Source: Mobula hypostoma
Lineage: Eukaryota
NCBI RefSeq assembly: GCF_963921235.1
Contig: NC_086097.1
Span: 21,330,001 to 21,394,000 of the forward strand
Direction of reading: 5' to 3'
DNA: 64,000 nucleotides
The stretch's first letter is position 1, and each line of letters starts with the position of its first letter. Of this stretch, positions 9,723-57,770 are shown one piece after another. Both the position numbers and the translations under genes were made by a program. The notes under the pieces were generated by a model that saw only the letters and a list, made by a program, of their open reading frames with translations, was not told the origin of the DNA and searched no databases.

Positions 9723-10519
9723 TTATTTCAGTAAAACCTCTTCAATTTTCAGTTCCACCTTCATTTGCTACTCAATAACGTTTTCTGTTTCTGAAGCATT
9801 CTGGTTGTTGTTGCCCATTTTATTACTCTGCTCCATTGCCTTTTGAATTTTTGCTTCAACAGACTCCTCCACTCCCCACCCAAACGTTTTAGTTTCAGGT
9901 CCTGTTCACAAGACTGAACTGGTCTGAGTTGAGGTGATGCTGCCCCAACGAAGCAGCCCCCTCTCCCTGGCAACGTCAATCATCGAGCCTCTCACTCACT
10001 TCTCTGATCTTGTTGACCAAATGCCGGTTTGTGATTGGCTGAGAAGGAGTTCAGAGACTGCTGCTACTTTATGTTCCTGCTTTTCAATTTGGGACTGAGG
10101 TGCTTGTATTCCTTGGTAGATCCTCCCGAGTCAGTCCAACTGGTCAATGCCAGTCTTTCTGACCTACAGTAGTCTCCTTCCTTTGTTTCATCCCATTGTC
10201 AAAATTCCTCTCTTGCTCTGTAACATATTCATTGTCCCTGAGGAAAAGTTAATCTAAAATAAAGTTTAAAATACAGTTTATATCCCCGTTTCTACCCCAA
10301 ACAACTCTCTCAAAATTCATGCCGAGGAACTTTTTGAAGGAAGTTCCACATGGTTCACTTTCTAAAAGTCAAAGTTGAGTTTATCATCACGTGCACAAGT
10401 TCACGTATGCAGAAGTACAATGAAAATCTTACTTGCAACAGCTTCACAGCTTCATAAATGCTGCATCCACGGGAAGACCATGCAGTAAACACAAAATATG
10501 ATTTTTACACGAATGAACG

Positions 10520-10740
10520 TGTGGGTTGTGGGGTGTGTCAGTGTTACAATGAGGGGTGTGCGGTGTGTCAGTGTTACAGTGAGGGGTGTGGGGTGTGTGG
10601 GTGTCACCGTGAGGGGTGTGGGGTGTATCGGTGTCACGGTGAGGGAGTGGGGTGTGTCAGTGTTACAGTGAGGGCTGTGGGGTGTGTCAGTGTCACAGTG
10701 AGGGGTGTGGGGTGTGTCAGTGTCACAGTGAGGGTGTGAG
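10520..10740. repeat. 30-bp G/T-rich minisatellite, about 7 units
   Basis: Unit GAGGGGTGTGGGGTGTGTCAGTGTYACAGT with period 30. Confidence 0.95.
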
Positions 10741-11244
10741 CAAATTTAGAGCAAAAAGAAAATAAAAACTTTCAGTGAAAAATGGTTGAAGTAGTCATAC
10801 TGTTGCTAAACTCTAGTGATTAGGGTTGTTGAAAAACCAATATGTTGAAGGGAAATAACTGTTCTGGGGGTGTAGGACTTTGGGTATCTCCTGCCCATTG
10901 GTAGCAGCATGAAGATGGTAGGGCTCTTCGATTGATGTTGGCTTCTTGAGTCTGCTCCCGCTGTCGATAATACTGATGATGGGATGGGATGTGCCTATGA
11001 TGGGCTGTACATGTCTATACTGTTTCTTACATTCCTATGCCTTGATTTACTGTACCAGACCATGGCACAATGATGTTTTCTGTCTATTCATCACACAATG
11101 TAGTCAATGAGTAACATTGTGACCTCTCTTTTGTTAAAAGACCAAGGCACAAGCAGAGGAAACTGTAATGGCGACGATCCCTCTGAACCAGGTCAATTGT
11201 CACTCGTTCCTTCTGCTTAAGCCTATGCCAATTCTATATTTACA

Positions 11245-11450
11245 CTATAGCGGGCCAGACAGCATCTAAGGAAAAGAGTAAACATTGACATTTCGGGCTG
11301 AGACCCTTCATTAGGAGTGGAAAGGAAGAGGAGAAGGGTCTCGCCCCAAAACGTCACCTGTTTACTCTTTTCTATCCTTCTGGCTGGCCTTCCAAGTTCC
11401 TCCAGCATTTTGTGTGTGGTGCTTTGGATTTACAGATTTTCTCGTGTTTG
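11245..11450. mobile_element. PLE-terminus fold-back element with decayed hammerhead cores
   Basis: Inverted arms homologous to 29885-29984. Minus strand reads CTAATGAAGGGTCTCAGCCCGAAATGTC at ~11287-11314. Confidence 0.8.
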
Positions 11451-12029
11451 CTGTAGTTACACCTACTGTTGGCACGTTACAGCTGCAGAACGCTGTCACG
11501 TTTAGTTTGGGAGTGATGGATAGAGTTCACTCAGTGTTAATCTATAATTAAATGACACTAAAGGTTAAATCCTGCTTGTTTTTATTTCAGCTCTACTGTT
11601 CAATGTTACTTTTGGTGAAGGCAGCTTGTACATGTGTGGAAAATTAATTACCCTGTTGTTGCTGCGCACGGGACAGATGGAATACGTTTGAATCTGATTA
11701 ATGTGTATATCACGGGCCCTGTTTTGGTCTTTTGGTCTTGTGGCTTCATTGCAGTGTAAGCATTGCCTTTCCCCCCACCTTGAGCCGTGATCCTATGAGG
11801 TGCGTGGCTGGTCTAGACATAGCAACGTCCGAGGGTCCCCAAGGATTGAGTGTTCACTAGGTGACTGAAGGTTTGGCTGCTGGGCTTCACCCTCCTCAGT
11901 CACTGCGTTAAAACTTGTGGCATGTCATAGGAAGGTGCCCACTCCCTCTTTTGCATTGCTGGACTTGTGCGTGTTGGGCCCAGCTACTTGGGGAAAATTT
12001 TGAGATGTCCAAGCACTGGAATTGGTTTA

Positions 12030-19080: not shown

Positions 19081-19174
19081 TGGTGTGAACTAAGGCTGAG
19101 TGAATGGCAGAGCCACCTCCGTGTGGCTTTCATTGTTTTATGTGCTTCCTTTGCCAGCCTGTACTGCAAAATAT

Positions 19175-19690
19175 AAACACGAGAGATTATGCAGATGCTG
19201 GAAATCTTGAGCAACAGACACAAAGTGCCTGAGGAGCTCCAGGGCCTCCTCTCCTGCCACTATGAGGCCACTCTCAGGGTTGGACAGCAACACCTCATAT
19301 TCCATTTGGGTAGCCTCTAACCTGATGGCATGGATATCGATTTCTCCTTTGGGTAATTTTTCCCCCTTTTCTTTCTTATTTTCCTCCCCCTTCAGTCTTC
19401 TTCCATTCCCCACATTGGCCTCTTACCTTCCTGGTGCCCCTCCTTCCCTTTCTCACATGATCCACTCTCCTCTCCTATCAGAGTCCTTCTTCTCCAGTCC
19501 TTTACTTTTCCCGCCCACCTGGCTTCACCTGTTTAGCTTGTCCCTCCCACCCCAACACCACCTTTTTCTTCCCTTGACTAACCCCCTTCCTTTCCAAACC
19601 TGATGAAGGGTCTTGGCCTGAAACTGCAACTGTTTATCCATTTCCATACCTGACCTGCTGAGTTCCTCCAGCATTTTGTATGTATGGCTC
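19175..19690 (+). mobile_element. Penelope-like 3' fragment with inverted terminal piece at its 5' end
   Basis: Encodes the GIY-YIG end (QHLIFHLGSL*PDGMDIDF), pyrimidine-rich UTR and decayed hammerhead CTGATGAAGGGTCTTGGCCTGAAA at ~19600-19623. Confidence 0.88.
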
Positions 19691-23769: not shown

Positions 23770-26112
23770 ACTTGCTCCTCCACTGCCTGGATTACTCTGT
23801 TTTATCCCTCCTAGTTCAGTCCCTCCCCACCTACACCCGTGACACTTCACACGCTTCTGAATCTTTTTCAATGATTTCAAGTTCCCTGGCCCCCATTATC
23901 TTATTTTTACTATGTACGTCCAGTTTCTATACACCTCCATCCCCCACCAGGAAGGCCTCAAAGCTCTCCATTTCTTTCTGGACATCAGACGCAACCAGTT
24001 TCCCTCCACCACCACACTCTTGCGTCTAGCGAAACTTGACCCCACTCTTAATAATTTCTCCTTTGGCCCCTCCCATTTCCTTCAAACAGAAGGTGTAGCC
24101 ATGGGAACCTGCATGGGTCCCAGCTATACCTGCTTTTTTGCCGGCCATGTGGAACAGTCTATGTTCCAAGCCTACACTGGTGTCCGTCCCCAACTTTTCC
24201 TACGCTGCATCGACTGCATTGGTGCTGATTCCTGCACTCATCCGGAGCTCATTGACATCATCAACTTTGCCTCCAATTTCCACCCTGCCTTCATCGTCTG
24301 GGATGGGAACTGTACTTCCCTCAGTTGCAGGCCCTTCCGGAGAGTGGTGCGGACACCCCAGCGCATCTGTGGATGTGAACTTCCCACTATTCAGGACATT
24401 TACTGTGACAGGTGTATAAAAAAGGCACAAAGGATTATTGGGGATCCGAGTCACCCCAACCGCAAAGTGTTCAACTGCTACCATCTGGGAAACAGTACCA
24501 CAGCATGAAAGACAGGACCAACAGGCTCCAGGACAGCTTCTTCCACCAGGCCATCAGACTGATTAATTCACACTGCCGCAATCATCTTTCTAAGCTATAT
24601 TGACTGTTCTGTTGTATATCTTACTGTACATACTATTTATTACAAATTACTATAGTTTACACATTGCACATTCAGATGGAGACGTAACAAAGATTTTTAC
24701 TCCTCACATATGTGAAGGATGTAAGAAATAAATTCAATTCAGTTTACCTGTTCCATTTCAGAAGCCTCCCTCCCCTTTCTCGATCTTTCTGTGTGTAGCT
24801 CTGGAAACAGCTTATCTACTGATGTCTATTATAAACCCATGGACTCTCACAGCTACCTGGACTATACCTCTTCCCACTCTGTTACTTGTAAAAAACACCA
24901 TCCCTTTTTCTCAATTCCACCATCGCATCTGCTCTCAGGATAAGGCTTCTCATTCTAGAATGGAGAAAATGTCCTATTTTTTTCAAAGAAAGGGGCTTCC
25001 CTTCCTCTATCATCAATGGTTGCCCTCAACCGCATCACTTCCATTTTACCCACATCTGCTCTTACCCCATCCTCCTGTCAGCCTACCAGGGATAGGGTTC
25101 CTCTTGTCCTCCCTTACCGCCCCACCAGCCTATGCGTCCAGCACATAGTTCTCCGGAACTTCAGCCATCTCCAACAAGATCCCACCACCAAGCTTATCTT
25201 TCCCTCTCCCCACTTTCTGCTTTCTGAAGAGTTTGCTCCCTATGTGACTCCCTTGTCCATTCGTCCCTCCCAACTGATCTCCCTCCTGACACTTATCCTT
25301 GCAAGTGGAACAAGTGCTACATCTGTCCCTACACCTCCTCCCTCACTACCATTCAGGGCCCCAAATTGTCCTTCCAGGTGAGGCGACACTTCACCTCTGA
25401 ATCATTTGGCGTCATCTACTGTGTCCGGTGCTCCCGATGTGGTCTCCTGTATATTGGTGAGACCCGACGTAGATTGGGAGACCGCCTCACCGAGCACCTA
25501 TGCTCCGTCTGCCAGAAGAAGCGGGATCTCCCAGTAGCCACTCATTTTAATTCCACTTCCCATTCCCATTCCGATATGTCAATCCATGGCCTCCTCAGCT
25601 GTCGCAATGAGGCCACACTCAGGTTGGAGGAACAACACCTTGTATTCCGTCTGGGTAGCCTCCAACCTGATGGCATGAACATCGATTTTTCAAACTTCCA
25701 GTGATGCTGCCCCCCGCTTCACTATTCCCCATCCCCTTTTCCTTCTTGCACTTATCTCCTTGCCTGGCCATTGTCTCCCTCTGGTGTTCCTCCCCCTCTT
25801 TCTTTCTTCCATGGCCTTCCGTCTTCTCCTGTTAAGTTCCCCCTTCTCCAGCCCTGTATCTCTTTCACCAATCAACTTCTTAGCTCTTTACTTCATTCCC
25901 TCCCCCACCAGTTTCACCTATCACCTTGAGTTTCTCCTCCCCCTCCCCCACCTTTTAAATTTACTCATCTGTTTTACTACAGTCCTGCAGAAGGGTCTTG
26001 GCCTGAAATGTCAACCGTACTTTTTCCTCTAAATATTGTCTGGCCTGCTGAGTTTCTCCAGCATTTTGTGTGTTTTGCTTGGATTTCCAGCATCTGCAGA
26101 TTTTCTTTTGTT
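23770..26112 (+). mobile_element. Older Penelope-like (Neptune-type) element, frameshifted
   Basis: LYTSIPHQEG, GVAMGT and GIY-YIG ORF 25366..25704 (VIYCVRCSRCGLLYIGET). Colinear with 28097-29984. Decayed hammerhead at ~25981-26016. Confidence 0.93.
24291..24740 (+). mobile_element. Rex-type LINE 3' fragment nested in the older PLE
   Basis: RTNRLQDSFFHQAIRL and AATAAATTCAATTC tail. PLE sequence CACCCTGCC...AGTTTACCTG resumes on both sides. Confidence 0.88.
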
Positions 26113-26204
26113 TACTCTGCTATGATCTTATCTCTCGTTCTGACTGAAGATCTGTCTTCACTTCAATGGCAGATTTTCCTTTATTCATCTCTGCTTTGTT
26201 GAGA

Positions 26205-26335
26205 CAGAATAACACACACAAAATGCTGGAGGACCTCAGCAGGCCAGGCAGCATCTATGGAGGGGAATAAGGAGTCGACAGTTTGGGCCAAGACCCCTCA
26301 TCAGGAGACCTGTCTTGGCCCGATACATTGACTAC
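26205..26335. mobile_element. PLE-terminus inverted fragment
   Basis: Minus strand reads CTGATGAGGGGTCTTGGCCCAAACTGTCGACT (decayed hammerhead), followed by a short + arm. Confidence 0.75.
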
Positions 26336-26374: not shown

Positions 26375-27342
26375 GCTGTGTACTTTGCTTCATGGAAGCA
26401 TGTCTCACCCCCACCATTTTGGATGCAGTGTTACAGCCTGAGGGGGTTCAACATTCACCGCAAAGACAGAATAGCTGATTCTCTTAAAGGTAGTGGAGGC
26501 AGAGTATGCCTCATGGTTAACTCATGGTGGTGCATGAACGTGGTAGTTCTGTCGCATTCCTGCTCACCTGACCTGGATTATCTAGTGGTCAAGTGCTGCT
26601 TATTCACCAGGATGTTGAACTCTAGCAAATTTCTACAGAGGTACCATGAAGAGCGTTCTAACTGGTTGCATCACGGTCTGGTATTGAGGGGCCACCGCAC
26701 AGGATCGGAAAAAACTGCAGAATGTTGCAAACTCCATCAGCTCCATCTTGTGCACTAGCCTCCCCAGCCAGAGGACATCTTCAAATGGCAATGCCACGAA
26801 AAATGGCTTCAATCATTAAGGATCCCTGTCACCCAGGACGTACCCTCTTCTCATTAAAGGGAGGAGGTACAGGTGCCTGAAGACACACACTCAATATTTA
26901 AGGAACAGCTTCTTCCCCTGTGCTATTAGATTTCTGAAAGGACAATCAATTGATGTACACTACCTCACTGTTTTTTTCCTTCACTTTTTGGACTAATTTA
27001 ATTTATTTTTTGAATATATGTTTCTTTTTGTAATTTATAGTTTTTAATTGTGTATTGCAATGTGCTGATGCTGCAGAACGACAGATTTCACAACATATGT
27101 CGGTGATATTAAACCTGATGGAGAGCAGTGCACACACAAAACGCTGGAGGAACTCAGCAGGTCAGGCAACATCTATAGAAAAGAGTAAACGGTCGATGTT
27201 TCATTCCAAAACATCAACTGTTTACTCTTTTTCATAGATGCTGCCTGACCCGCTGAGTTCCTCCAGCGTTTTATGTGCGTTGCTTTGGATTTCCAGCATT
27301 TGCAGACTTTCTCATACTTGTGATTAAACCTGATTGTGATTC
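26375..27342 (+). mobile_element. Internally deleted Rex-type LINE (endonuclease start fused to 3' end)
   Basis: GFNIHRKDR...GGRVCLMVNSWWC...CSPDLDYLVVKC joined at ~26600 to C-terminal and 3'UTR sequence. Confidence 0.8.
27120..27322. mobile_element. PLE-terminus fold-back element
   Basis: Inverted arms and 12-bp TSD ATTAAACCTGAT (27108-27119, 27323-27334). Confidence 0.88.
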
Positions 27343-28098
27343 ATGGGGCCGCCATTCACTGCTTCCAAGAAGTCGTAGTGAGCCAGTACTTTGAATCAGA
27401 GGTCCCACTGGCAAAGGCACACATTCGATGCTGCTGCGGAGAGAGTCTGAGGGTTCAGAACCCAGTGATAACCGAAGAAGAGTGATGCACTTCCAAACTG
27501 AGGCCAATCACCCATCGTTAATCAGTATGGAGTGTGAGTGAACACATCGAAGTCCATCACGGGCACAGCCCCCCACACCGTCACCAGCATTTTGAGAGGT
27601 GCTGCCTTCGGAAGGTGGCAGCTATCGTGAAGGATCCCCACCGTGCGTGTCATGCTCTCCTTGCTGCCGTTGTTGGGGAGGATGTATAGGAGCTTGAAGT
27701 CTCTTAACACCAGGGTCAGGAACAGATACTATCGGACAAACATTGGGTCCTTGAACTGACCTGCACAACCTGACCATACCTTAGTAGTGAAACACTATGG
27801 ACCACCTCTTGCACCATAATACATAGGAGCAGAATTAGGCCATTTGGCACATCAAACCTGTCCAACATTCCATCATGGCCGATTTATTATCCTTTTCAAC
27901 CCCACTCTCCTGCCTTCTCCCCGTACCCTTTGACACCCTGACTAACCAACGATTTATCAGCCTCTGCTTTAAATATACCCAATAACCTGGCCTCCACAGC
28001 TGTCCTTGGCAATGAATTCCACAGATTCACCATCCTCTGCTTAAAGAAATCCCTTCTCATCTCTGTTCCAAATGGAAACCACTCTATTCTGAGGCTCG

Positions 28099-29586
28099 AC
28101 ATACCTCGACACTATTTTATCACCCCTTGTTCAATCCCTTCCGACCTATGTTCGTGACACTTCTCATGCTCTTAAACTTTTCGATGATTTTAAGTTCCCT
28201 GGCCCCCACCGCTTTATTTTCACCATGGATGTCCAGTCCTTATATACTTCCATCCCCCATCAGGAAGGTCTCAAAACTCTACGCTTCTTTTTGGATTCCA
28301 GACCTAATCAGTTCCCCTCTACCACCACTCTGCTCCGTCTAGCGGAATTAGTCCTTACTCTTAATAATTTCTGCTTTGGCTCCTCCCACTTCCTCCAAAC
28401 TAAAGGTGTAGCTATGGGCACCCGTATGGGTCCTAGCTATGCCTGCCTTTTTGTTGGCTTTGTGGAACAATCTATGTTCCGTGCCTATTCTGGTATCTGT
28501 CCCCCACTTTTCCTTCGCTACATCGACGACCGCATTGGCGCTGCTTCCTGGACGCATGCAGAACTCGTTGACTTTATTAACTTTGCCTCCAACTTTCACC
28601 CTGCCCTCAAGTTTACCTGGTCCATTTCCGACACCTCCCTCCCCTTTCTAGATCTTTCTGTCTCTGTCTCTGGAGACAGCTTATCCACTGATGTCTACTA
28701 TAAGCCTACTGACTCTCACAGCTATCTGGACTATTCCTCTTCTTACCCTGTCTCTTGCAAAAACGCCATCCCCTTCTCGCAATTCCTCCGTCTCCGCCGC
28801 ATCTGCTCTTAGGATGAGGCTTTTCATTCTAGGACGAGGGAGATGTCTTCCTTTTTTAAAGAAAGGGGCTTCCCTTCCTCCACTATCAACTCTGCTCTTA
28901 AACGCATCTCCCCCATTTCACGTACATCTGCTCTCACTCCATCCTCCCGCCTCCCCACTAGGAATAGGGTTCCCCTGGTCCTCACCCACCACCCCACCAG
29001 CCTCCGGGTCCAACATATTATTCTCCGTAACTTCCGCCACCTCCAACGGGGTCCCACCACTAAGCACATCTTTCCCTCCCCGCCTCTCTCTGCATTCCGC
29101 AGGGATCGCTCCCTACACAACTCCCTTGTCCATTCGTTCCCCCCATCCCTCCCCACTGATCTCCCTTCTGGCTGTTATCCGTGTAAGCGGAACAAGTGCT
29201 ACACATGCCCTTACACTTCCTCCCTTACCACCATTCAGGGCCCCAAACAGTCCTTCCAGGTGAGGCAACACTTCACCTGTGAGTCGACTGGGGTGATATA
29301 CTGCGTCCGGTGCTCCCGATGTGGCCTTTTATATATTGGCGAGACCCGACGCAGACTGGGAGACCGCTTTGCTGAACATCTACGCTCTGTCCGCCAGAGA
29401 AAGCAGGATCTCCCAGTGGCCACACATTTTAATTCCACATCCCATTCCCATTCTGACATGTCTATCCACGGCCTCTTCTACTGTAAAGATGAAGCCACAC
29501 GCAGGTTGGAGGAACAACACCTTATATTCCGTCTGGGTAGCCTCCAACCTGATGGCATGAACATCGACTTCTCTAACTTCCGCTAA
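28099..29586 (+). pseudogene. PLE reverse transcriptase + GIY-YIG endonuclease, one in-frame stop (28810-28812), N-terminus missing
   Basis: DVQSLYTSIP, QTKGVAMG, LRYIDD, LPFLD, CKRNKCYTC linker and VIYCVRCSRCGLLYIGET. ORFs 28225 and 28843 share a frame. Confidence 0.95.
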
Positions 29587-29885
29587 GGCCCCACCTCCCC
29601 CTCGTACCCCATCTGTTACTCATTTTTATGCACACATTCTTTCTCTCACTCTCCTTTTTCTCCTTCTGTCCCTCTGAATATACCTCTTGCCCATCCTCTG
29701 GGTCCCCCCCCCCTTGTCTTTCTTCCCGGACCTCCTGTCCCATGATCCTCTCATATCCCCTTCTGCCTATCACCTGTCCAGCTCTTGGCTCTATCCCTCC
29801 CCCTCCCGTCTTCTCCTATCATTTTGGATCTCCCCCTCCCCCTCCCCCTCCAACTTTCAAATCCCTTACTCACTCTTCCTTCAGT

Positions 29886-29923
29886 TAGTCCTGACGAAGG
29901 GTCTCGGCCTGAAACGTCGACTG
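29886..29923 (+). ncRNA. Minimal type I hammerhead ribozyme in PLE terminal repeat
   Basis: AGTC-CTGACGA-AGG(GTCTCGG)CCT-GAA-ACGT-C-GACT. Stem I AGTC/GACT, palindromic ACGT stem III, GUC site at 29916-29918. Confidence 0.85.
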
Positions 29924-30829
29924 CGCCTCTTCCTACAGATGCTGCTTGGCCTGCTGCGTTCACCAGCAACTTTGATGTGTGTTGCTATTCTGAGGCTGTG
30001 CCCTCTCGTCTGAGATTCACCCACTATAGGAAACATCCTCTCTACATTCAGTCTGTGTAGGTCTTTCAATATTCATTAACTTTCAATGAGATGCCCCCTC
30101 ATTCCAACAAGTACAGACCCAGAGCCATAAAACGCTCCTCATTTAGTTAATCCTTTGATTCCCGAAATCATTGTTATGAACCTCCTCTGGACCCTTTTCA
30201 ATGCCAGTACATCTTTTCTTAGATAGGGGGCCCAAAGTTGCTCACAATACCCCAAGTGCAGTCTGAATAATGTCTTATAAAGACTCAGCATCACATCCTT
30301 GCTGTTATATTCTAGACCTCTTGAAATGAATGCTAACATTGCATTTCCCTTTCGTACTATTAACTCAACTGCAAGTTAACCTTTAGGGAATCCTGCGAGA
30401 GGATTTCCAAGTCCCTTCACACCTCTGAGTTTTGAATTTTCTTCCTTTTTAGAAAATAGTCAAAGCACATGACCATGAACTATATTCCATCTGCCGCACC
30501 TTTGCCCATTCTCCCAATCTGTCCAAGTCCTTCTGCAGAGTCCCTTCTTCCTCAACACTGCCTGCCCACACCTATCTCTGTATCTTCTGCAAACTTAGCC
30601 ATGAAGCCATCGATTCTGTCACCCAAATCGTTGACATATAATGTGAGAAGAAGTGATTCCAATACTTTTTTCAGTCATGACTTAGCAATGACCACAATGT
30701 CCTCCCTGCCAATCTCTAACTGCCCTGCAAGATCTTATTCCGTATACTGTGTGCATTCAAATATAACATTTTCAGTCCTGTATTCATCACGCTTTTCAAT
30801 TTTGCCCTGCACGTTACACTTCAACTCAT

Positions 30830-32080: not shown

Positions 32081-32900
32081 TTTTCAGAGCTAGGATTGAA
32101 CATGCTGCTCTGTTCCTGGATTCTGCTGTATTTTCAACCAGGTGGGTTTATAAAGATGAAAACATATGATAATGGGGAAGCTACTACAAATGCTCTGCTT
32201 TTATTAACACTACATTAGGGGTCCCTGAGTGGTCCGTGGAGATCCATACCTCTGCATTGTTTTCGGTTTTAAACCATTCCTTGCTGTTCATCCTACTTCA
32301 CTCGCAAAGTGTCCCTGTGAACGAATGGATTTTTTTCTTCAGTCAATTTTGTCTTTGCTGCTAGCTGATTATACCATTGAAGCATGTACTCAGTAGGTGC
32401 AGAAGTGACACATTATTCCGGTTAGATGTGAAAATCCCTTTTATTGAAGACAAAGAAAGGCCTAAGCCCCAAGGCTTATGGATCTCTGTATATCTCAATC
32501 TATTGCCAATCTTGCTCGAAGTTTAAGATGATTAACTGGATTTCAAAACCTATTAATCCCTGTCCGAAGGGGAAAAAATGCAGGGTTATGAGTAGAGAAC
32601 AGGCATTTGGGGTTGGCTGGATTTCTCTTGTATAGAGCTAGCATTGGATCAAAGGACTGAATGGCCTCTGTTTTCATTAATGATTCTGTGCTATATTTTT
32701 TGCTTGCTGTTTGTAATGAAAGGCTTGGACTTCTAAAGCACCTTATAAATTTCATGTCGATGAAGTAAATAAACTTAATTTATCCAATATGCATATACTG
32801 TAATTGACTTATTGATTTGTTCTTCTATATTATGTATATATTATGTATTGCCTATGATATTAAACCTGATTCTGATTCTGAACTTAATGTCTCACAGCTC

Positions 32901-33740
32901 TTTATAATGAATAAACTGTTGCAATATAGAACGTATAACAGCATAGTAGATGAACAAGCCCTTTATAATGAATGAACTGTTGCAATATAGAACGTATAAC
33001 AGCATAGTACATGAACAAGCTCTTTATAATGAATAAACTGTTGCAATATAGAACGTATAACAGCATAGTAGATGAACAAGCCCTTTATAATGAATAAACT
33101 GTTGCAATATATCTTTGACTACAAGTACCTCGGGTCAAGAATGATGAGTTCGGAGAAGGACATAAGGATACGGAAGGCACTGGCGTGGAGGGCTATGAAT
33201 GACATGAAGGAAATCTGGAAGTCAAACCTGACCAGAGGGCTTAAAAAGAGGATTTTCATAGCAGTCATAGAGTCCATTCTCACGTACGGATGCGAGACGT
33301 GGACACTCACCAAGACGATGGGAAAGTCTCTAGATGGTTGCTATACACGAATGCTCCGGATGGCTTGACGTGAGTTGGCAACAGCACATGGCGAACGTTG
33401 AGCTGTATAACAACCTACTGATGCCCACCACTAAAATCGAGGTGAGAAGACTGCAACTAGCGGGGCACTATCTACGCCACCCCGAGCTACCTGCCAGCCT
33501 AGTCATCATATGGGAGCCCAAGCACGGGAGGATGAACCCTGGGCGCCCTCCCAACACTATGGTCAACACGATCCTGGAAGACAGCGGCGCGGCTAATGTA
33601 GATGAACTGAACACACTGATGAGGGAGAGGGAGAAGTGGAGAGTCCGTCATCGTGCCCGACGCCGGCCCCCTGGGCCTGAGTGGATGCAGGAGTAGTTGC
33701 AATATAGAACGTATAACAGCATAGTACATGAACAAGCCCT
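32901..33740. repeat. 61-bp tandem repeat, 4 units, last unit split by RTE
   Basis: Units start at 32901, 32962, 33023 and 33084 (TTTATAATGAATAAACTGTTGCAATATAGAACG...AACAAGCCC). Confidence 0.95.
33112..33695 (+). mobile_element. Young RTE-clade LINE 3' fragment
   Basis: YKYLGS, ESILTYGCETWTLT, RRLQLAGHYLRH and GRP motifs. One frameshift at ~33365. Perfect 11-bp TSD GTTGCAATATA (33101-33111, 33696-33706). Confidence 0.93.
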
Positions 33741-37139: not shown

Positions 37140-37615
37140 TCTAAAGCCTTTTCATCCTCTTTATAATACAGCAGAACTGAATTCAACATTCCAGGCAACA
37201 CACAAAATGCTGGAGGAACTCCGCAGGTCAGGCACCTAACTAGAATTTTGTACAGTTGAAACATAACTTCCTGACTTTCAATCTCAATGCCTTAACCAAT
37301 AAAGGCAAACATGCCAATACCTTCATAAATATTGTGTTATTAAACTGTGCAACCACTTTTAGGGAGCTATGGACCCCAAGATCCCTCTGTAACGTAAAGA
37401 GTCTTTACAATGTACAGTTTCTTTACATTGATCTCCCACAATGCAGAACTTCACATCTGGCTGAGTTAAATGCCATCTACCATTTCTCTGCCCATACTTG
37501 CTACTGATCTGAATCCCACTGTATCCTTTGCCAGTCTTCTATGCTATCCACAATATTACCAATCTTTGTGTTAACTGCAAACTTACTAACCCACCATCTA
37601 CATTTTAATCCAGGA
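37140..37615 (-). mobile_element. Old CR1 RT fragment with small PLE-terminus piece (~37195-37235)
   Basis: CCACCAATCTTTGTG...TGCAAACTT-like antisense FADD region. CAACACACAAAATGCTGGAGGAACT insert. Confidence 0.65.
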
Positions 37616-41006: not shown

Positions 41007-41025
41007 TAAATCATTAAATCATTTT

Positions 41026-41495
41026 CAGATGCTGGAAATCCAGAGCAACACACGCAAAATGAATTCAGCAGTTCAGGCAGCATCTGTGGAGAGCAATAAA
41101 CAATCAATGTTTCGCCATTCAATTTTTATCACCTCCCACTCCAGAGGAGATTAATGACCTAAATCAATAAACTACACTACAATAATGTGTCTGCACACTT
41201 GAAGATTAATCACCCAACTGTCGTGGATATCTTCAGTGAAGTGTATAAGAGGGTGGAAAGCATCTGTAAAATGGAGATCATTCGCTAAGCTAGTCCTGCC
41301 AAAGTTCACCAACTCCATCAATCATGATCCAAGATACTATCTTGAAATATGTGGTGCAGTCCTGAAGAAACATTTTGGCCTAAAACATTGACTGTTTATT
41401 CATTTCCATAGATGCTGCCTGACCTGCTGAGTTTCTCCTGCATTTTGTGTGTGTTGCTGTGGATTTCCAGCATCTGCAGAATTCCTTGTGTTTTT
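41026..41495. mobile_element. PLE-terminus inverted arms enclosing ~240 bp unrelated filler
   Basis: Left arm ~41026-41116 is antisense. Right arm 41358-41495 starts AGTCCTGAAGA (decayed hammerhead). Confidence 0.8.
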
Positions 41496-48781: not shown

Positions 48782-49900
48782 ATGCAGACAAGTGTGTGGT
48801 GTTGCACTTTGGGAGGGCAAACCAGGGTAGGGTTTACGCACTGAATGATAAGGCACTGCAGAGTGCAGTAGAATGGAGGGATCTGGGAATATGGATCCAT
48901 AATTCCATGAAAATGGCATTACAGGTAGTAAAGAGAGCCTTTGGCACATTGGCCTTTATAAATCTAAGTACTGAGTACAGGAGGTGGGATGTTATGTTGA
49001 AGTTGTATAAGACGTTGATGAGGCCTAATTTGGAGTATTGTGTACATTTCTGGTCACCAACCTGCAGGAAAGGTATCAATAAGATTGAAAGAGCGCAGAT
49101 TAATATTTACAAGGATGTTGCCAGGACTTGAAGACCTGAGTTACAGGGAAAGGTAGGAGAATGAGGGGAGATTTGATAGAAGTACACAAAATTGATGAGA
49201 GGTATAGATGAGATAAATGGAAGCAGGCTTTTTCCAATGAAGTAGGGTGACACTTGATTTATGGGTTACAGGTGCAAGGTAGAATGTTTTAGGAGAACCT
49301 AATGAGCTGGCAGTGGAATTGCTGGATGTGGGTTTGATTTCAATATTTAAGAGAAATTTGGATAGTTATAGTACTGTGCAGAAGTCCTAGGCACCCTAGA
49401 TTTGTTTACATGTTTCAGGTGGTACGGCCTTCATGGAGCCCTGATCTCAGCATCTTCGATGCTGCCTGGGATTACCTGCAGAGACAGAAGCAAGAGAGAT
49501 GGCCGAAGTTTGCAGAAGAGATGTGGCAAGTTCTGCAAAATGTTTGGAACAGCCTACCAGCTGATTTTCTTATAAAACGGCATGACAGTGTACCTAAGAG
49601 AATTAATGCAGTTTTAAAGGCAAAGGATGATCACAACAAATATTGATATGATTCAGTTTTTTAACTGTTTACTGCTCTTTATAGTTTTTCTAATACTTAG
49701 AAACCTCTTATTTCATTATTTTTCAAAGAATCTTCACTTTACAGATTTTTTAACACGTACCTAAGAGTTTTGCACAGTACTGTACATAGGTGGAAGAGGT
49801 ATGGAGGGCTCTGGTCTGAGTGCACATCGATTGGACTAGGCAGGGTAATAGTTCGGCATGGACTCAATGGGCCGAAGGGCCTGTTTCTGTGCTATGACTC
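48782..49900 (+). mobile_element. Degenerate CR1 3' fragment hosting a Tc1 derivative
   Basis: ORF 48796..49131 (VLHFGRANQG...RPNLEYCVHFWSP) and tail GGGCCGAAGGGCCTG. Confidence 0.88.
49369..49782 (+). mobile_element. Tc1-like internal-deletion derivative with both TIRs
   Basis: TA|TAGTACTGTGCAGAAGTCCTAGGCAC ... GTACCTAAGAGTTTTGCACAGTACTG|TA. Transposase C-terminus SPDLSIFDAAWD...AVLKAKDDHNKY. Confidence 0.92.
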
Positions 49901-51070: not shown

Positions 51071-51111
51071 GGTCAAGTCCAGAGTGGTGTGTGACAAGTT
51101 ATAAGCTGATG

Positions 51112-51306
51112 CAACACCCACAAAGTGCTGGAGGAACTCAGCAGGCCAGGCAGCATCCATGGAAATGAATAAAGAGTTGACATTTTGGGCCTAAACCCTC
51201 TCATTATTCCTCTCCGTAGATGCTGCCTGACCTGCTGAGCTCCCTCAGCATTTTGTGTGTGTTGCTTTGGATTTCCAGCATCTGCAGAAACTCTTGTGTT
51301 TACATA
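51112..51306. mobile_element. PLE-terminus fold-back element
   Basis: Inverted arms and 9-bp TSD AAGCTGATG (51103-51111, 51307-51315). Confidence 0.85.
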
Positions 51307-51809
51307 AAGCTGATGGCTTTCTAAGACATCAATGCTTCTGTTCTTTTCAGTGGCAAAGGTTGTCAAGCTGGCATAGACTGCTGCAGGAAGTTTGGTGAGC
51401 TGCTAGATGGAGCACCCTGCAGACTAGTGTTACAGACAACAGCTGAGAGAGTGCTGATGGTGATCACAGCGTGATATTGAGTCTGCAATGGCAGTGTTTC
51501 TTTAGGCTGTCTTCTTTGGACATGATTGTCTCAGCACAGCTACAGAGTGCTCCCAACGTTACCCTGGAGCCTCCCTGAAAATTAATGGTTGAACTCCATG
51601 GCAATGATGTGAATAAACACGGTAGGGGTCCTGGAACAGCGATGTATTTGTGTTCCTCTATTTATTATTCCTGAACATATCAAAGAATGGGAACTAAGTG
51701 TGACAGACTAACAGACCCAACCTAGCAACAGAAAGCTTGCTTGCTTTCCAGTTATCTCTTGAAGATATAGCACTGTGCATGCTAGATTCTTTTATTGTAT
51801 AGTTTCACA

Positions 51810-52361
51810 TAGTATGGCCTCCACAGAGCCCTGATCTCAACATAATCAAGGCTGTCTGGGATTATCTGGAGAGACAGAACCAAGCGAGACAGCTAAAGTC
51901 TGCGGAAGGACTGTGATAAGTTCTCTAAGATGCTTGGAACAACCTACCAGCTGATTTTCTTATAAAACTGCACTTCAGTGTACCTAGTTATAAAGGCAAA
52001 GGGTGGTAACACCAAATATTGATTTGATTCAGTTTTTTTTTACTATTTACTGCATTTTATAGTAAATTTTCTGATGTTTCGAAACTTTTCATTTCATTAT
52101 TTATGAACACATCTTTACTGTACAGAAACACGAGGAAATTTGCAGATGCTGGAATTTCAAGCAACACACATAAAAGTTGCTGGTGAACGCAGCAGGCCAG
52201 GCAGCATCTCCAGGAAGAGGTACAATCGACGTTTCGGGTCTCGGCCCGCAACGTCGACTGTACCTCTTCCTAGAGATGCTGCCTGTGCCTGCTGCGTTCA
52301 CCAGCAACTTTACTGTACAGAGTTTTTTTACATGTGCTCAAGACTTTCGCACGGTTCTGTA
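51810..52361 (+). mobile_element. Tc1-like 3' fragment (same family as 49369-49782)
   Basis: WPPQSPDLNIIKAVWDYLE...KAKGGNTKY and right TIR AAGACTTTCGCACGGTTCTG|TA. Confidence 0.88.
52127..52307. mobile_element. Young PLE-terminus fold-back element (long hairpin)
   Basis: ~65-bp inverted arms centred on GGGTCTCGGCCC (~52236-52247). 14-bp TSD CTTTACTGTACAGA (52113-52126, 52308-52321). Confidence 0.92.
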
Positions 52362-52424
52362 TGTGGTGAGGTTAGACGTTTGTATGTAGAATGATGGTCC
52401 TTGAATGGAGACGTTGCCCGATGG

Positions 52425-56689: not shown

Positions 56690-57770
56690 AGAATCAGAAT
56701 CAGGTTTAGCATCACTGGTGTGTGTTGTGAATTTTTTTTGTTATACGGCAGTACAGTGAAATGTATAATAAAAACTCTGAATTACAGTAAGTGTGTGAGT
56801 GTGTGTGTATATATATTTAAATAGTGTACAGTGTACGTAGTTAAATGAGTTAAATTAAACAAGTAGTACATAAAATGTAGTGAGGTCATGGGTTTAAAGT
56901 CCATTCGGAAATCGGATGGCAGAGGGGAGGAAGCTGTTCCTGAATCATTGAGTGTGTGCCTTCAAGTTCCTGTACCTCCTTCCTGTTGGTAGCAATGAGA
57001 AGAGAATGGTAGGGGTCTGTAATGTTGGATGCTGCCTTTTTGAGGCATCTCTTCTTGAAGATGTCCTAGAAGCTATGGAGGTTAGTGCCCATGATGGAGC
57101 TGACTGAGTTCACAACTTTCTGCATCGTCTTTCAATCCTGTGCAGTGCTTCCCCACCCATACCAGAGGATGATGTAGCCAGATAGAATGCTCTCCATGGT
57201 ACATTTGAAGAAATTTGCGTGTGTCTTTGATGACGTACCAAATCTACTCAAGCTCCTAAGGAAATATAGTCGCTGTCATGCCTTCTTTGTAACGACATCG
57301 ATATGTTGAACCCAGTTTAGATCCCGAGATGTTGATACCCAGGAACTTGAAATTGCTAACAAGAGAAAATCTGCAGATGCTGGAAATCCAAGTAACACAC
57401 ACAAAATCCTGGAGGAACTCAGCCTGGCCTGCTAAGTTCCTCCAACATTTTGCATGTGTTAATGTAAAATTGCTCACTCTTTCCACTTCTGATCACTCCA
57501 TGAGGACTGGCGTGTGTTTCCTCATCTTTCTGAAATCGACAATCAGTTCTTTAGTTTTACTTACACTGAGTGCAAGGTTGTAGCTGTGACACCACTCAAC
57601 TAGCTGATATAGCTCGCTCCTGCATGCCTTCTCGTCACCATCTGAAATTCTGCTGACAATAGTTGTGTCATCAGCAAATTTACTTGTGGCACGTGAGCTG
57701 TGCCTAGTCACACAGTCATGGGTGTAGACACGGTTCAGTGCGCAAGGAGGAGATGCTAATCTGCATAATT
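56690..57770 (-). mobile_element. Degenerate Rex-type LINE
   Basis: KFADDTTIVSRISDGDE...[17 protein letters not shown] and (GATTCT)n tail on the minus strand. Confidence 0.88.
57358..57466. mobile_element. Short PLE-terminus fold-back element
   Basis: 8-bp TSD AAATTGCT (57350-57357, 57467-57474). Arms GGAGGAACTCAGC / GCTAAGTTCCTCC. Confidence 0.82.

What the first reader, a model, noticed from the sequence alone, without database searches (positions are those of the whole stretch)
52113..52321. Family of stand-alone fold-back insertions built only from the PLE terminus
Seen: 110-200-bp palindromic elements at 11245, 26205, 27120, 51112, 52127 and 57358. Four have distinct TSDs of 12, 9, 14 and 8 bp, so they are separate insertions. 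Arms derive from the hammerhead region and the sequence 3' of it, and turn-around points vary but mostly fall in or near the ribozyme. The 52127 copy folds at stem II, lacks CTGACGA and matches the young PLE subfamily, while the others match the older one. Known: PLEs often have an inverted 5' terminal repeat. Inference: these are minimal products of hammerhead-processed PLE RNA that mimic MITEs and would form long dsRNA hairpins if transcribed. This is the best candidate for an under-described system here.
Basis: partly seen in the sequence, partly recalled or inferred. Interest (0 to 1): 0.72.

Follow-up and report, generated by a model that had tools for sequence, protein, structure and literature searches.

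The report
Two-armed stubs of Penelope retrotransposon
These small mirror-image repeats in a ray's DNA are real, separate insertions of the end of a very common Penelope-type jumping gene, likely built afresh at each landing from mostly uncut RNA; the layout is already known for this group, so they are not a new self-spreading family.

Summary
There are six head-to-head pairs of the Penelope-like element (PLE) terminus. Four have exact TSDs of 12, 9, 14 and 8 bp, and three have a paralogous empty site in the window. The interpretation mostly fails. Nine of the 12 arms run across the predicted hammerhead cut, so their template was not cut there. Every copy has its own centre. In five of six, one arm carries the ~35-nt 3' 'tail' and the other does not. 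In public runs of three organisms the outer ends pile at two sites 33-36 nt apart, and 18 of 20 displayed centres are at low depth: de novo by-products, not a MITE-like family. The layout (inverted 5'-truncated copy, one-sided tail, TSD, palindromic junction) is published (PMC3846280, PMC8557442). Best mechanism: both nicked target strands prime the PLE RNA, and the two cDNAs join through 1-3 nt of microhomology (consistent with PMC11167929). One open hint: 3 of 7 direct joints start exactly at the cut site, so a minority of templates may be cut. This scan has already reported the same structure and mechanism many times in this genome.

The parts
52113..52126 (+). Left TSD copy, 14 bp; last base shared with the element's long end
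52126..52238 (-). Inverted arm, young PLE subfamily, from -11 to +104 relative to the predicted cut; carries the 3' tail (long end)
52236..52311 (+). Forward arm, from -20 to +58; no tail; its last bases coincide with the first bases of the right TSD (microhomology)
52236..52247 (+). Junction at hammerhead stem II: 3 bases shared by both arms; the loop belongs to the shorter (forward) arm
   Evidence: sequence; fold
52255..52256 (+). Predicted hammerhead cut site (after GUC) in the forward arm; crossed by the arm; mirror site at 52228/52227
   Evidence: min-HHR layout of PMC4209133 applied by eye
52308..52321 (+). Right TSD copy, 14 bp
52042..52112 (+). Host repeat (Tc1-like, label recalled) interrupted by the insertion; uninterrupted paralog at 49367-49784
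   Evidence: joint 52098->52323
51103..51315 (.). Two-armed stub, older subfamily, 9-bp TSD; inverted arm -28 to +68 (short end), forward arm +7 to +105 (long end)
27108..27334 (.). Two-armed stub, older subfamily, 12-bp TSD, inside a LINE-end repeat; inverted arm -8 to +65, forward arm about -13 to +105; 10 unassigned bases at 27120-27129
57350..57474 (.). Two-armed stub, 8-bp TSD, inside a LINE; inverted arm +36 to +103, forward arm +28 to +68; contains no ribozyme sequence
11240..11462 (.). Old two-armed stub; inverted arm about -48 to +42, forward arm about -27 to +105; 6-bp candidate TSD only
26209..26335 (.). Inverted arm -30 to +68 with a ~26-nt degenerate forward arm; no TSD found; weakest member
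19174..19689 (.). Longer copy of the same design: inverted long-end arm (+38 to +105) joined to a forward piece with the ORF end, 3' region and ribozyme, ending at the short end (+70); no TSD of 6 bp or more found
28093..29987 (+). 5'-truncated young PLE: RT fragment, GIY-YIG endonuclease, pyrimidine-rich 3' region, min-HHR at about 29887-29924, short end
23800..26115 (+). Older decayed PLE with GIY-YIG domain and long (tailed) end

Best explanation
These are doubly 5'-truncated, head-to-head insertions of an endonuclease-bearing Penelope-like retrotransposon, likely made anew at each site when both nicked target strands prime reverse transcription on mostly uncut element RNA and the two short cDNAs join. 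Shown: PLE origin, TSDs of variable length, empty sites, unique centres, one tailed and one untailed end, arms that cross the ribozyme cut site, and 1-3 nt shared at direct joints. Inferred: the staggered double nick gives the 8-14-bp TSD; one strand starts at the outer RT start site (+103 to +105) and the other at the inner one (+65 to +70); both stop after 30-150 nt and anneal through short complementary patches. The ribozyme is rich in such patches (stem II, GTCGAC, GGCC), which together with selection for short copies explains why centres fall in or near it. The stubs are likely dead ends.
For: (1) One long and one short outer end in 6 of 6 scorable two-armed units (52127, 51112, 27120, 57358, 11245, 19174; p about 0.016 if ends were chosen independently). 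(2) Genome-wide, flank junctions pile at 52126 and at 52159-52162, 33-36 nt apart, with unrelated A/T-rich flanks: both sites in X1, X5 and X15, the short site in X9's displayed loose-end rows. This matches the two RT start sites and double-strand nicking and extension shown in vitro for the anole PLE (PMC11167929). (3) In 5 of 5 clearly resolved units the arm with the short outer end reaches further upstream (p about 0.03). A single cDNA that snaps back cannot give this, because the second arm cannot copy sequence the first lacks. (4) All 7 direct joints displayed share 1-3 letters; 52127 shares 3. (5) 20 displayed arm-to-arm joints are all different, each in 1-2 contigs, 18 at depth 50 or less (a unique-flank contig has depth 16 in X1). 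(6) Nine of 12 window arms and 8 of 20 genome-wide joints cross the cut site; HHR mutants insert normally in vitro (PMC11167929).
Against: No whole genome was available, so the window sample is six to eight units and the genome-wide sample is the 20 joints the tool displayed (15 of 81 rows in one table, 12 of 68 in another), young subfamily only, biased to centres between -20 and +104. Arm boundaries were set by hand on decayed copies. 27120 is near-symmetric or slightly nested, 26205 is nested, and 41021/41357 is nested with no TSD. Arkhipova et al. (PMC3846280) read the same junction palindromes as self-priming on an antisense template; a hairpin trimmed at one end afterwards would also give a one-sided tail. 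Seven of 20 joints start at +1 to +3, and one centre has depth 227 in X1. Only in 52127 are the two arms clearly closer to each other (94%) than to third copies (88-90%); in 51112, 57358, 11245 and 19174 they are not, so 'one RNA' is not shown.
Confidence: 0.7

Rival explanations
1. Self-priming hairpin: an antisense RNA or a first cDNA folds back at a palindrome and is extended into a hairpin, which the endonuclease then trims at one end and integrates (the reading of Arkhipova et al. 2013 plus the 'EN-mediated resolution' of Craig et al. 2021).
For: Centres at 52127 (stem II) and (GGCC centre 52195->52287; GTCGAC centre 52186->52256) sit on palindromes; 27120 is near-symmetric; the 52127 arms are 94% alike.
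Against: The loop-bearing arm is the shorter one at the outer end in 5 of 5 resolved units, which needs an extra trimming step always on the same arm. The short end of 52127 lies off the usual site and coincides with target microhomology, as expected for priming. Many centres have only 1-2 shared letters or filler. In vitro both target strands are extended on sense RNA (PMC11167929).
Confidence: 0.15
2. One reading: the stubs are minimal products of RNA that the hammerhead has cut, so the cut defines the template's 5' end and the centre.
For: Of 20 displayed joints, 7 have an arm starting at +1 to +3, and 3 of the 7 direct joints start exactly at +1. Binomial p 0.007 to 0.045 for 3 of 5 within the 11 best-detected positions. 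In these cases the other arm also stays downstream of the cut. 51112 (forward arm) and 57358 (both arms) do not cross the site.
Against: Nine of 12 window arms and 8 of 20 joints cross the site. CpG decay and a 6-bp palindrome at the site can pile alignment breaks there (p 0.12 if starts at -6 to -1 are folded in). Min-HHRs are inactive as monomers in vitro (PMC4209133), and no RNA-seq ends were found at the anole site (PMC11167929).
Confidence: 0.08
3. A propagating non-autonomous palindromic family (retro-MITE) mobilised in trans by the PLE protein.
For: One centre (52196->52288) has depth 227 in X1, about 14 times a unique contig; one centre has depth 255 in the putative RNA run X15. pLTRs can mobilise intervening DNA in trans (PMC3846280).
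Against: Six of six window copies and 20 of 20 displayed joints differ; lengths 109-515 bp; several subfamilies. The high-depth centre could lie in a duplicated segment or a host repeat.
Confidence: 0.05
4. DNA-transposon MITEs, or chance neighbours of two independent PLE fragments.
For: Strong hairpins; the terminus is very abundant (41,733 contigs laid in X1). 26205 and 41021/41357 lack TSDs and could be neighbours.
Against: TSDs of 8, 9, 12 and 14 bp enclose both arms; ends are not mirror images; arms are PLE sequence continuous with an RT plus GIY-YIG ORF.
Confidence: 0.02

Closest known systems
Inverted, 5'-truncated insertion units of EN+ PLEs (Pen2a_Av and relatives, PMC3846280, passages and Discussion read; general scheme in PMC8557442, passages read)
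   Same: Head-to-head inverted terminus, palindrome at the junction, 31-nt (30-40-nt) tail on one end only, TSD of 8-10 bp or none, microhomology joints.
   Different: Here both arms are so short (109-206 bp in all) that no ORF or direct pLTR remains; TSDs reach 14 bp; copies are very abundant.
Anole Poseidon element PAc in vitro (PMC11167929, main text read)
   Same: Both target strands nicked and extended, two adjacent internal RT starts that define the tail, A/T-rich targets, ribozyme cleavage not needed.
   Different: No finished two-armed insertion was shown in vitro; the clade of the ray element was not determined here.
Minimal hammerheads of metazoan PLE pLTRs (PMC4209133, results and discussion read)
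   Same: Same min-HHR design at 29887-29924; the paper notes dual min-HHRs 100-700 bp apart on opposite strands.
   Different: 52127 lacks the 5' catalytic box in both arms and 57358 has no ribozyme sequence, so neither can be a ribozyme.
Non-LTR retrozymes (bioRxiv 10.64898/2026.07.22.740005, parts 1-3 of 5 read)
   Same: Non-coding, PLE pLTR-derived, present in a chondrichthyan.
   Different: Retrozymes are head-to-tail tandem units with complete HHRs; these are head-to-head with broken or absent HHRs.
L1 twin priming (recalled; not read)
   Same: Both target strands prime on element RNA and give an inverted 5' part joined by microhomology.
   Different: In L1 the two parts cover different RNA segments; here they overlap, so the product is a palindrome.
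MITEs of DNA transposons (definition recalled)
   Same: Short, non-coding, hairpin-forming, abundant.
   Different: No mirror-image termini, no fixed TSD, no fixed length, retroelement origin.

Membership tests
EN+ Penelope-like element insertion | Parent element with RT and C-terminal GIY-YIG endonuclease | tested here: met
   RVT_1 (E 3e-5, below the curated cut-off) and GIY-YIG (above cut-off) at 28093-29583; 375 longer homologs, best named hits from rays and sharks
EN+ Penelope-like element insertion | Minimal hammerhead in the terminal repeat | tested here: met
   Motif at 29891-29914 and 19600-19623 (2 of 4 matches; the bare pattern is not above chance); stems read by eye; Rfam has no matching model
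EN+ Penelope-like element insertion | Inverted 5'-truncated copy, head-to-head | tested here: met
EN+ Penelope-like element insertion | 30-40-nt tail on one end only | tested here: met
   (6 of 6 scorable); two end sites 33-36 nt apart
EN+ Penelope-like element insertion | Variable short TSD | tested here: met
   8, 9, 12, 14 bp in 4 of 6
EN+ Penelope-like element insertion | Clade (Poseidon, Neptune, other) by RT tree | not tested
   no named references fetched
MITE | Mirror-image terminal inverted repeats at both ends | tested here: not met
   outer ends differ by 35-63 nt in five of six
MITE | Fixed TSD length and uniform element length | tested here: not met
   lengths 109-206 bp
Non-LTR retrozyme | Head-to-tail tandem units each with a complete type I HHR | tested here: not met
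   head-to-head; no such tandem array among 11 TRF rows
Propagating non-autonomous PLE family | Many dispersed copies sharing one centre | tested here: not met
   6 of 6 window centres and 20 of 20 displayed joints differ; 2 of 20 at high depth remain unexplained; no whole-genome count
Product of hammerhead-cut RNA | Arms begin at or 3' of the cut site | tested here: not met
   9 of 12 arms cross it; a minority genome-wide is inconclusive
Source of dsRNA, siRNA or A-to-I editing | Locus transcribed; small RNAs or editing on the arms | not testable with these tools
   only contigs of a guessed RNA run; X15 covers the arms but not the flanks; no raw reads

The most novel reading that the evidence does not exclude
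The stubs are a fossil record of the PLE integration step. One PLE dimer primes one RNA from both target strands at two fixed sites, and the pile of arms starting exactly at the hammerhead cut site records the minimal ribozyme cutting in the germline of a vertebrate, which has not been shown in vivo in the papers read. With very many copies, this genome would then let the in vivo cut fraction and the order of priming be measured from DNA alone.
Probability: 0.3. Interest if true: 0.6.

Novelty: new member of a known kind. Interest (0 to 1): 0.27.

Why it matters
As a family claim it matters little: the layout is published and the copies look like dead-end by-products. Two things keep some value. 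First, how PLEs form tandem and inverted ends is stated as unresolved (PMC8557442), and these very short, abundant units discriminate between the published self-priming reading and double priming. Second, whether minimal hammerheads cut in vivo is open (PMC4209133, PMC11167929), and the junction spectrum can test it. Practically, such stubs would be mis-annotated as MITEs, and those in transcripts would be expected to form dsRNA, as already reported for Penelope inverted repeats in Drosophila (PMC3681739).

Tried and rejected
No whole genome is held, so the decisive breakpoint census could not be run. A 24-base terminus pattern found 0 loci in metagenome, viral and prokaryote collections. Rfam gave no hammerhead hit; its one match (Plastid-psbJ-4, below the gathering score) is a generic hairpin match to 27120. 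The bare hammerhead pattern is not above chance in the window (4 against 2.4 expected). Laying contigs on the young PLE end showed 15 of 288 joints and none usable for centres; its loose ends at 29887, 29923 and 29986 mostly reflect subfamily differences and I did not count them as truncations. No RNA holder was listed; the guessed RNA run X15 has no cover on the flanks of 52127, which says nothing on expression. Whether the 52127 insertion exists in organism C could not be told (its contig stops at 52323). A Pfam scan of the 150 longest of 231 non-repeat frames found no host exon (1 LINE hit), so I cannot say the stubs lie in an intron. The test of arm-to-arm identity against third copies was uninformative for the old copies. 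One backward joint (52208->52178) and the empty-site joint were left out of the count of 20. A look-up of earlier findings by sequence returned nothing. Literature searches that found no paper on stand-alone short PLE palindromes or on PLE twin priming: (open-licence library only; Repbase and Dfam entries and Evgen'ev and Arkhipova 2005 or Arkhipova 2006 could not be seen). Supplements not seen that may bear: Fig. S2 of PMC11167929 and the tables of the 2026 retrozyme preprint.

Full report
Setting. The window is repeat-rich vertebrate DNA (45% self-repeat). It holds a 5'-truncated young PLE (28093-29987) and an older one (about 23800-26115), with RT and GIY-YIG domains. The best named relatives of the RT are from rays and sharks, up to 91% identical. 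No whole genome is held. The PLE end carries a minimal hammerhead of the kind described in PMC4209133 (results and discussion read). I number positions from its predicted cut after GUC (52255|52256 in the forward arm of the focal copy).

Observation. All six elements exist. TSDs of 12, 9, 14 and 8 bp are exact and unlikely by chance: a repeat of 8 bp or more abutting both ends occurred at 0.1% of 3000 random positions. Three of the four sit in other repeats whose paralogs in the window show the target once, and contigs of run X1 skip the 52127 insertion (joint 52098->52323, 2 contigs). A contig of organism B carries the right arm end joined to the right flank (table 8), so the insertion predates the split of A and B. 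The 52127 arms match the young PLE end at 89-91% and the other arms at 57-77%. All six fold far better than shuffles except 26205, which is marginal.

Anatomy. From the alignment, inner and outer ends are: 52127, -11/+104 and -20/+58; 51112, -28/+68 and +7/+105; 27120, -8/+65 and about -13/+105; 57358, +36/+103 and +28/+68; 11245, about -48/+42 and -27/+105; 26205, -30/+68 and -20/+8. A seventh unit at 19174-19689 has the same design with the ORF end in one arm. Three regularities follow. Every centre is different. In 6 of 6 scorable units one arm ends at about +104 and the other at +70 or earlier. In 5 of 5 resolved units the short-ended arm reaches further upstream; 27120 is near-symmetric, and 26205 and the TSD-less pair 41021/41357 are nested and were not scored. 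Boundaries were set by hand on decayed copies.

Genome-wide view. Laying public contigs on 52040-52400 (41,733, 26,509, 8,220 and 2,245 contigs in X1, X5, X9, X15) showed flank junctions piled at 52126 (98 and 100 contigs in X1 and X5) and at 52159-52162 (73-87 per position in X1 and X5, 27-29 in X9), with unrelated A/T-rich flanks. These are two fixed ends 33-36 nt apart, the published 'tail'. The tool displayed 15 of 81 joints and 12 of 68 filler rows, which gave 20 distinct arm-to-arm joints after dropping one backward joint and the empty site. All differ, each is in 1-2 contigs, and 18 have depth 50 or less (a unique-flank contig has 16 in X1). Six of the 14 in table 5 occur in both X1 and X5, likely orthologous insertions. 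All 7 direct joints share 1-3 letters. The sample covers the young subfamily only and favours centres downstream of -20.

Was the RNA cut? For the window copies, no: 9 of 12 arms cross the cut site, including both arms of 52127. A cut at another ribozyme kilobases upstream cannot be excluded but would not set the centre. Genome-wide, 8 of 20 joints cross it, 5 lie wholly downstream, and 7 start at +1 to +3. Three of the 7 direct joints start exactly at +1. That is p 0.007 to 0.045 in the best-detected stretch, but p 0.12 if CpG decay folds starts at -6 to -1 onto the site, and a 6-bp palindrome lies there. It is a hint of a cut minority and no more. In vitro, ribozyme-dead RNA inserts normally and no RNA-seq ends were found at the site (PMC11167929, main text read).

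Mechanism. The anole PLE protein nicks and extends both target strands and starts reverse transcription at two adjacent internal sites that define the tail (PMC11167929). Applied here (inference): a staggered double nick gives the 8-14-bp TSD; each strand primes at one of the two sites; both cDNAs stop early and anneal through 1-3 complementary bases, with filler or stutter in some joints. Two antisense cDNAs can only anneal where the RNA is self-complementary, and the ribozyme region offers stem II, GTCGAC and GGCC; at 52127 the three shared bases are stem II. Simple snap-back of one cDNA is excluded for 52127, because the loop-bearing arm lacks 46 nt that the other arm has and the TSD abuts its end. 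The published self-priming reading (PMC3846280, Discussion read) survives only with an added one-sided trimming step. That both arms come from a single RNA molecule is not shown.

Comparison with what is known. PMC3846280 describes inverted pLTRs with palindromic junctions, a 31-bp one-sided tail and 8-10-bp TSDs. PMC8557442 (passages) gives this as typical of EN+ PLEs and calls its origin undefined. PMC4209133 notes opposite-strand min-HHR pairs 100-700 bp apart. PMC3681739 (passages) reports siRNAs matching Penelope inverted repeats. PMC8969392 (passages) lists inverted pLTRs in a curation guide. The units fail the MITE tests (ends, TSD, length) and the retrozyme test (head-to-tail units with full ribozymes; bioRxiv 10.64898/2026.07.22.740005, parts 1-3 of 5 read). 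I found no paper on such short stand-alone units or on double priming in PLEs (open-licence library only). L1 twin priming and the Tc1-like label of the host repeat are recalled.

Earlier notes of this scan. I stated the double-priming reading before opening them. At least eight notes on this genome reach the same view, and others report a small excess of ends at the cut site or a larger pile 6-7 bases past it; the forward arm of 51112 starts at +7. They are unchecked AI notes and I count none as evidence.

Verdict. A real feature and a new, very short member of a known kind; not a propagating family and, for these copies, not products of cut RNA. Interest 0.27. The most novel reading not excluded, a DNA record of double priming plus in vivo ribozyme cutting in a minority of templates, has probability about 0.3 and would merit 0.6.

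Noticed in passing
window 41022-41114 (-) and 41357-41493 (+): Head-to-head PLE ends enclosing 242 bp that match nothing else in the window; no TSD of 6 bp or more. Could be captured DNA or two independent insertions.
   Followed up: partly
window 37193-37235 (-): Single 43-bp arm (+26 to +68, short end) with no partner arm.
   Followed up: partly
window 27120-27129: Ten bases between the left TSD and the inverted arm that are neither target nor PLE terminus; 5-6 such bases at the right ends of 51112 and 57358.
   Followed up: no
joint 52196->52288 in run X1: One centre with a 6-base filler at depth 227, about 14 times a unique contig, absent from X5 and X9: a possible small multi-copy set.
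   Followed up: no
joint 52171->52241 in run X15: In a guessed RNA run, a centre whose filler repeats the ribozyme's 5' catalytic box twice, depth 255.
   Followed up: no
window 51111-51304: The two arms of 51112 differ at three sites that also vary between old subfamilies, so they may come from two RNAs; decay cannot be excluded.
   Followed up: partly
window 49367-49784 and about 51800-52365: Short inverted-repeat-bounded element (Tc1-like, label recalled) and a longer decayed relative that hosts the 52127 insertion.
   Followed up: partly
window 10519-10738 and 32896-33111: Minisatellites of 30 bp (7.4 copies) and 61 bp (3.5 copies, 95% matches).
   Followed up: no
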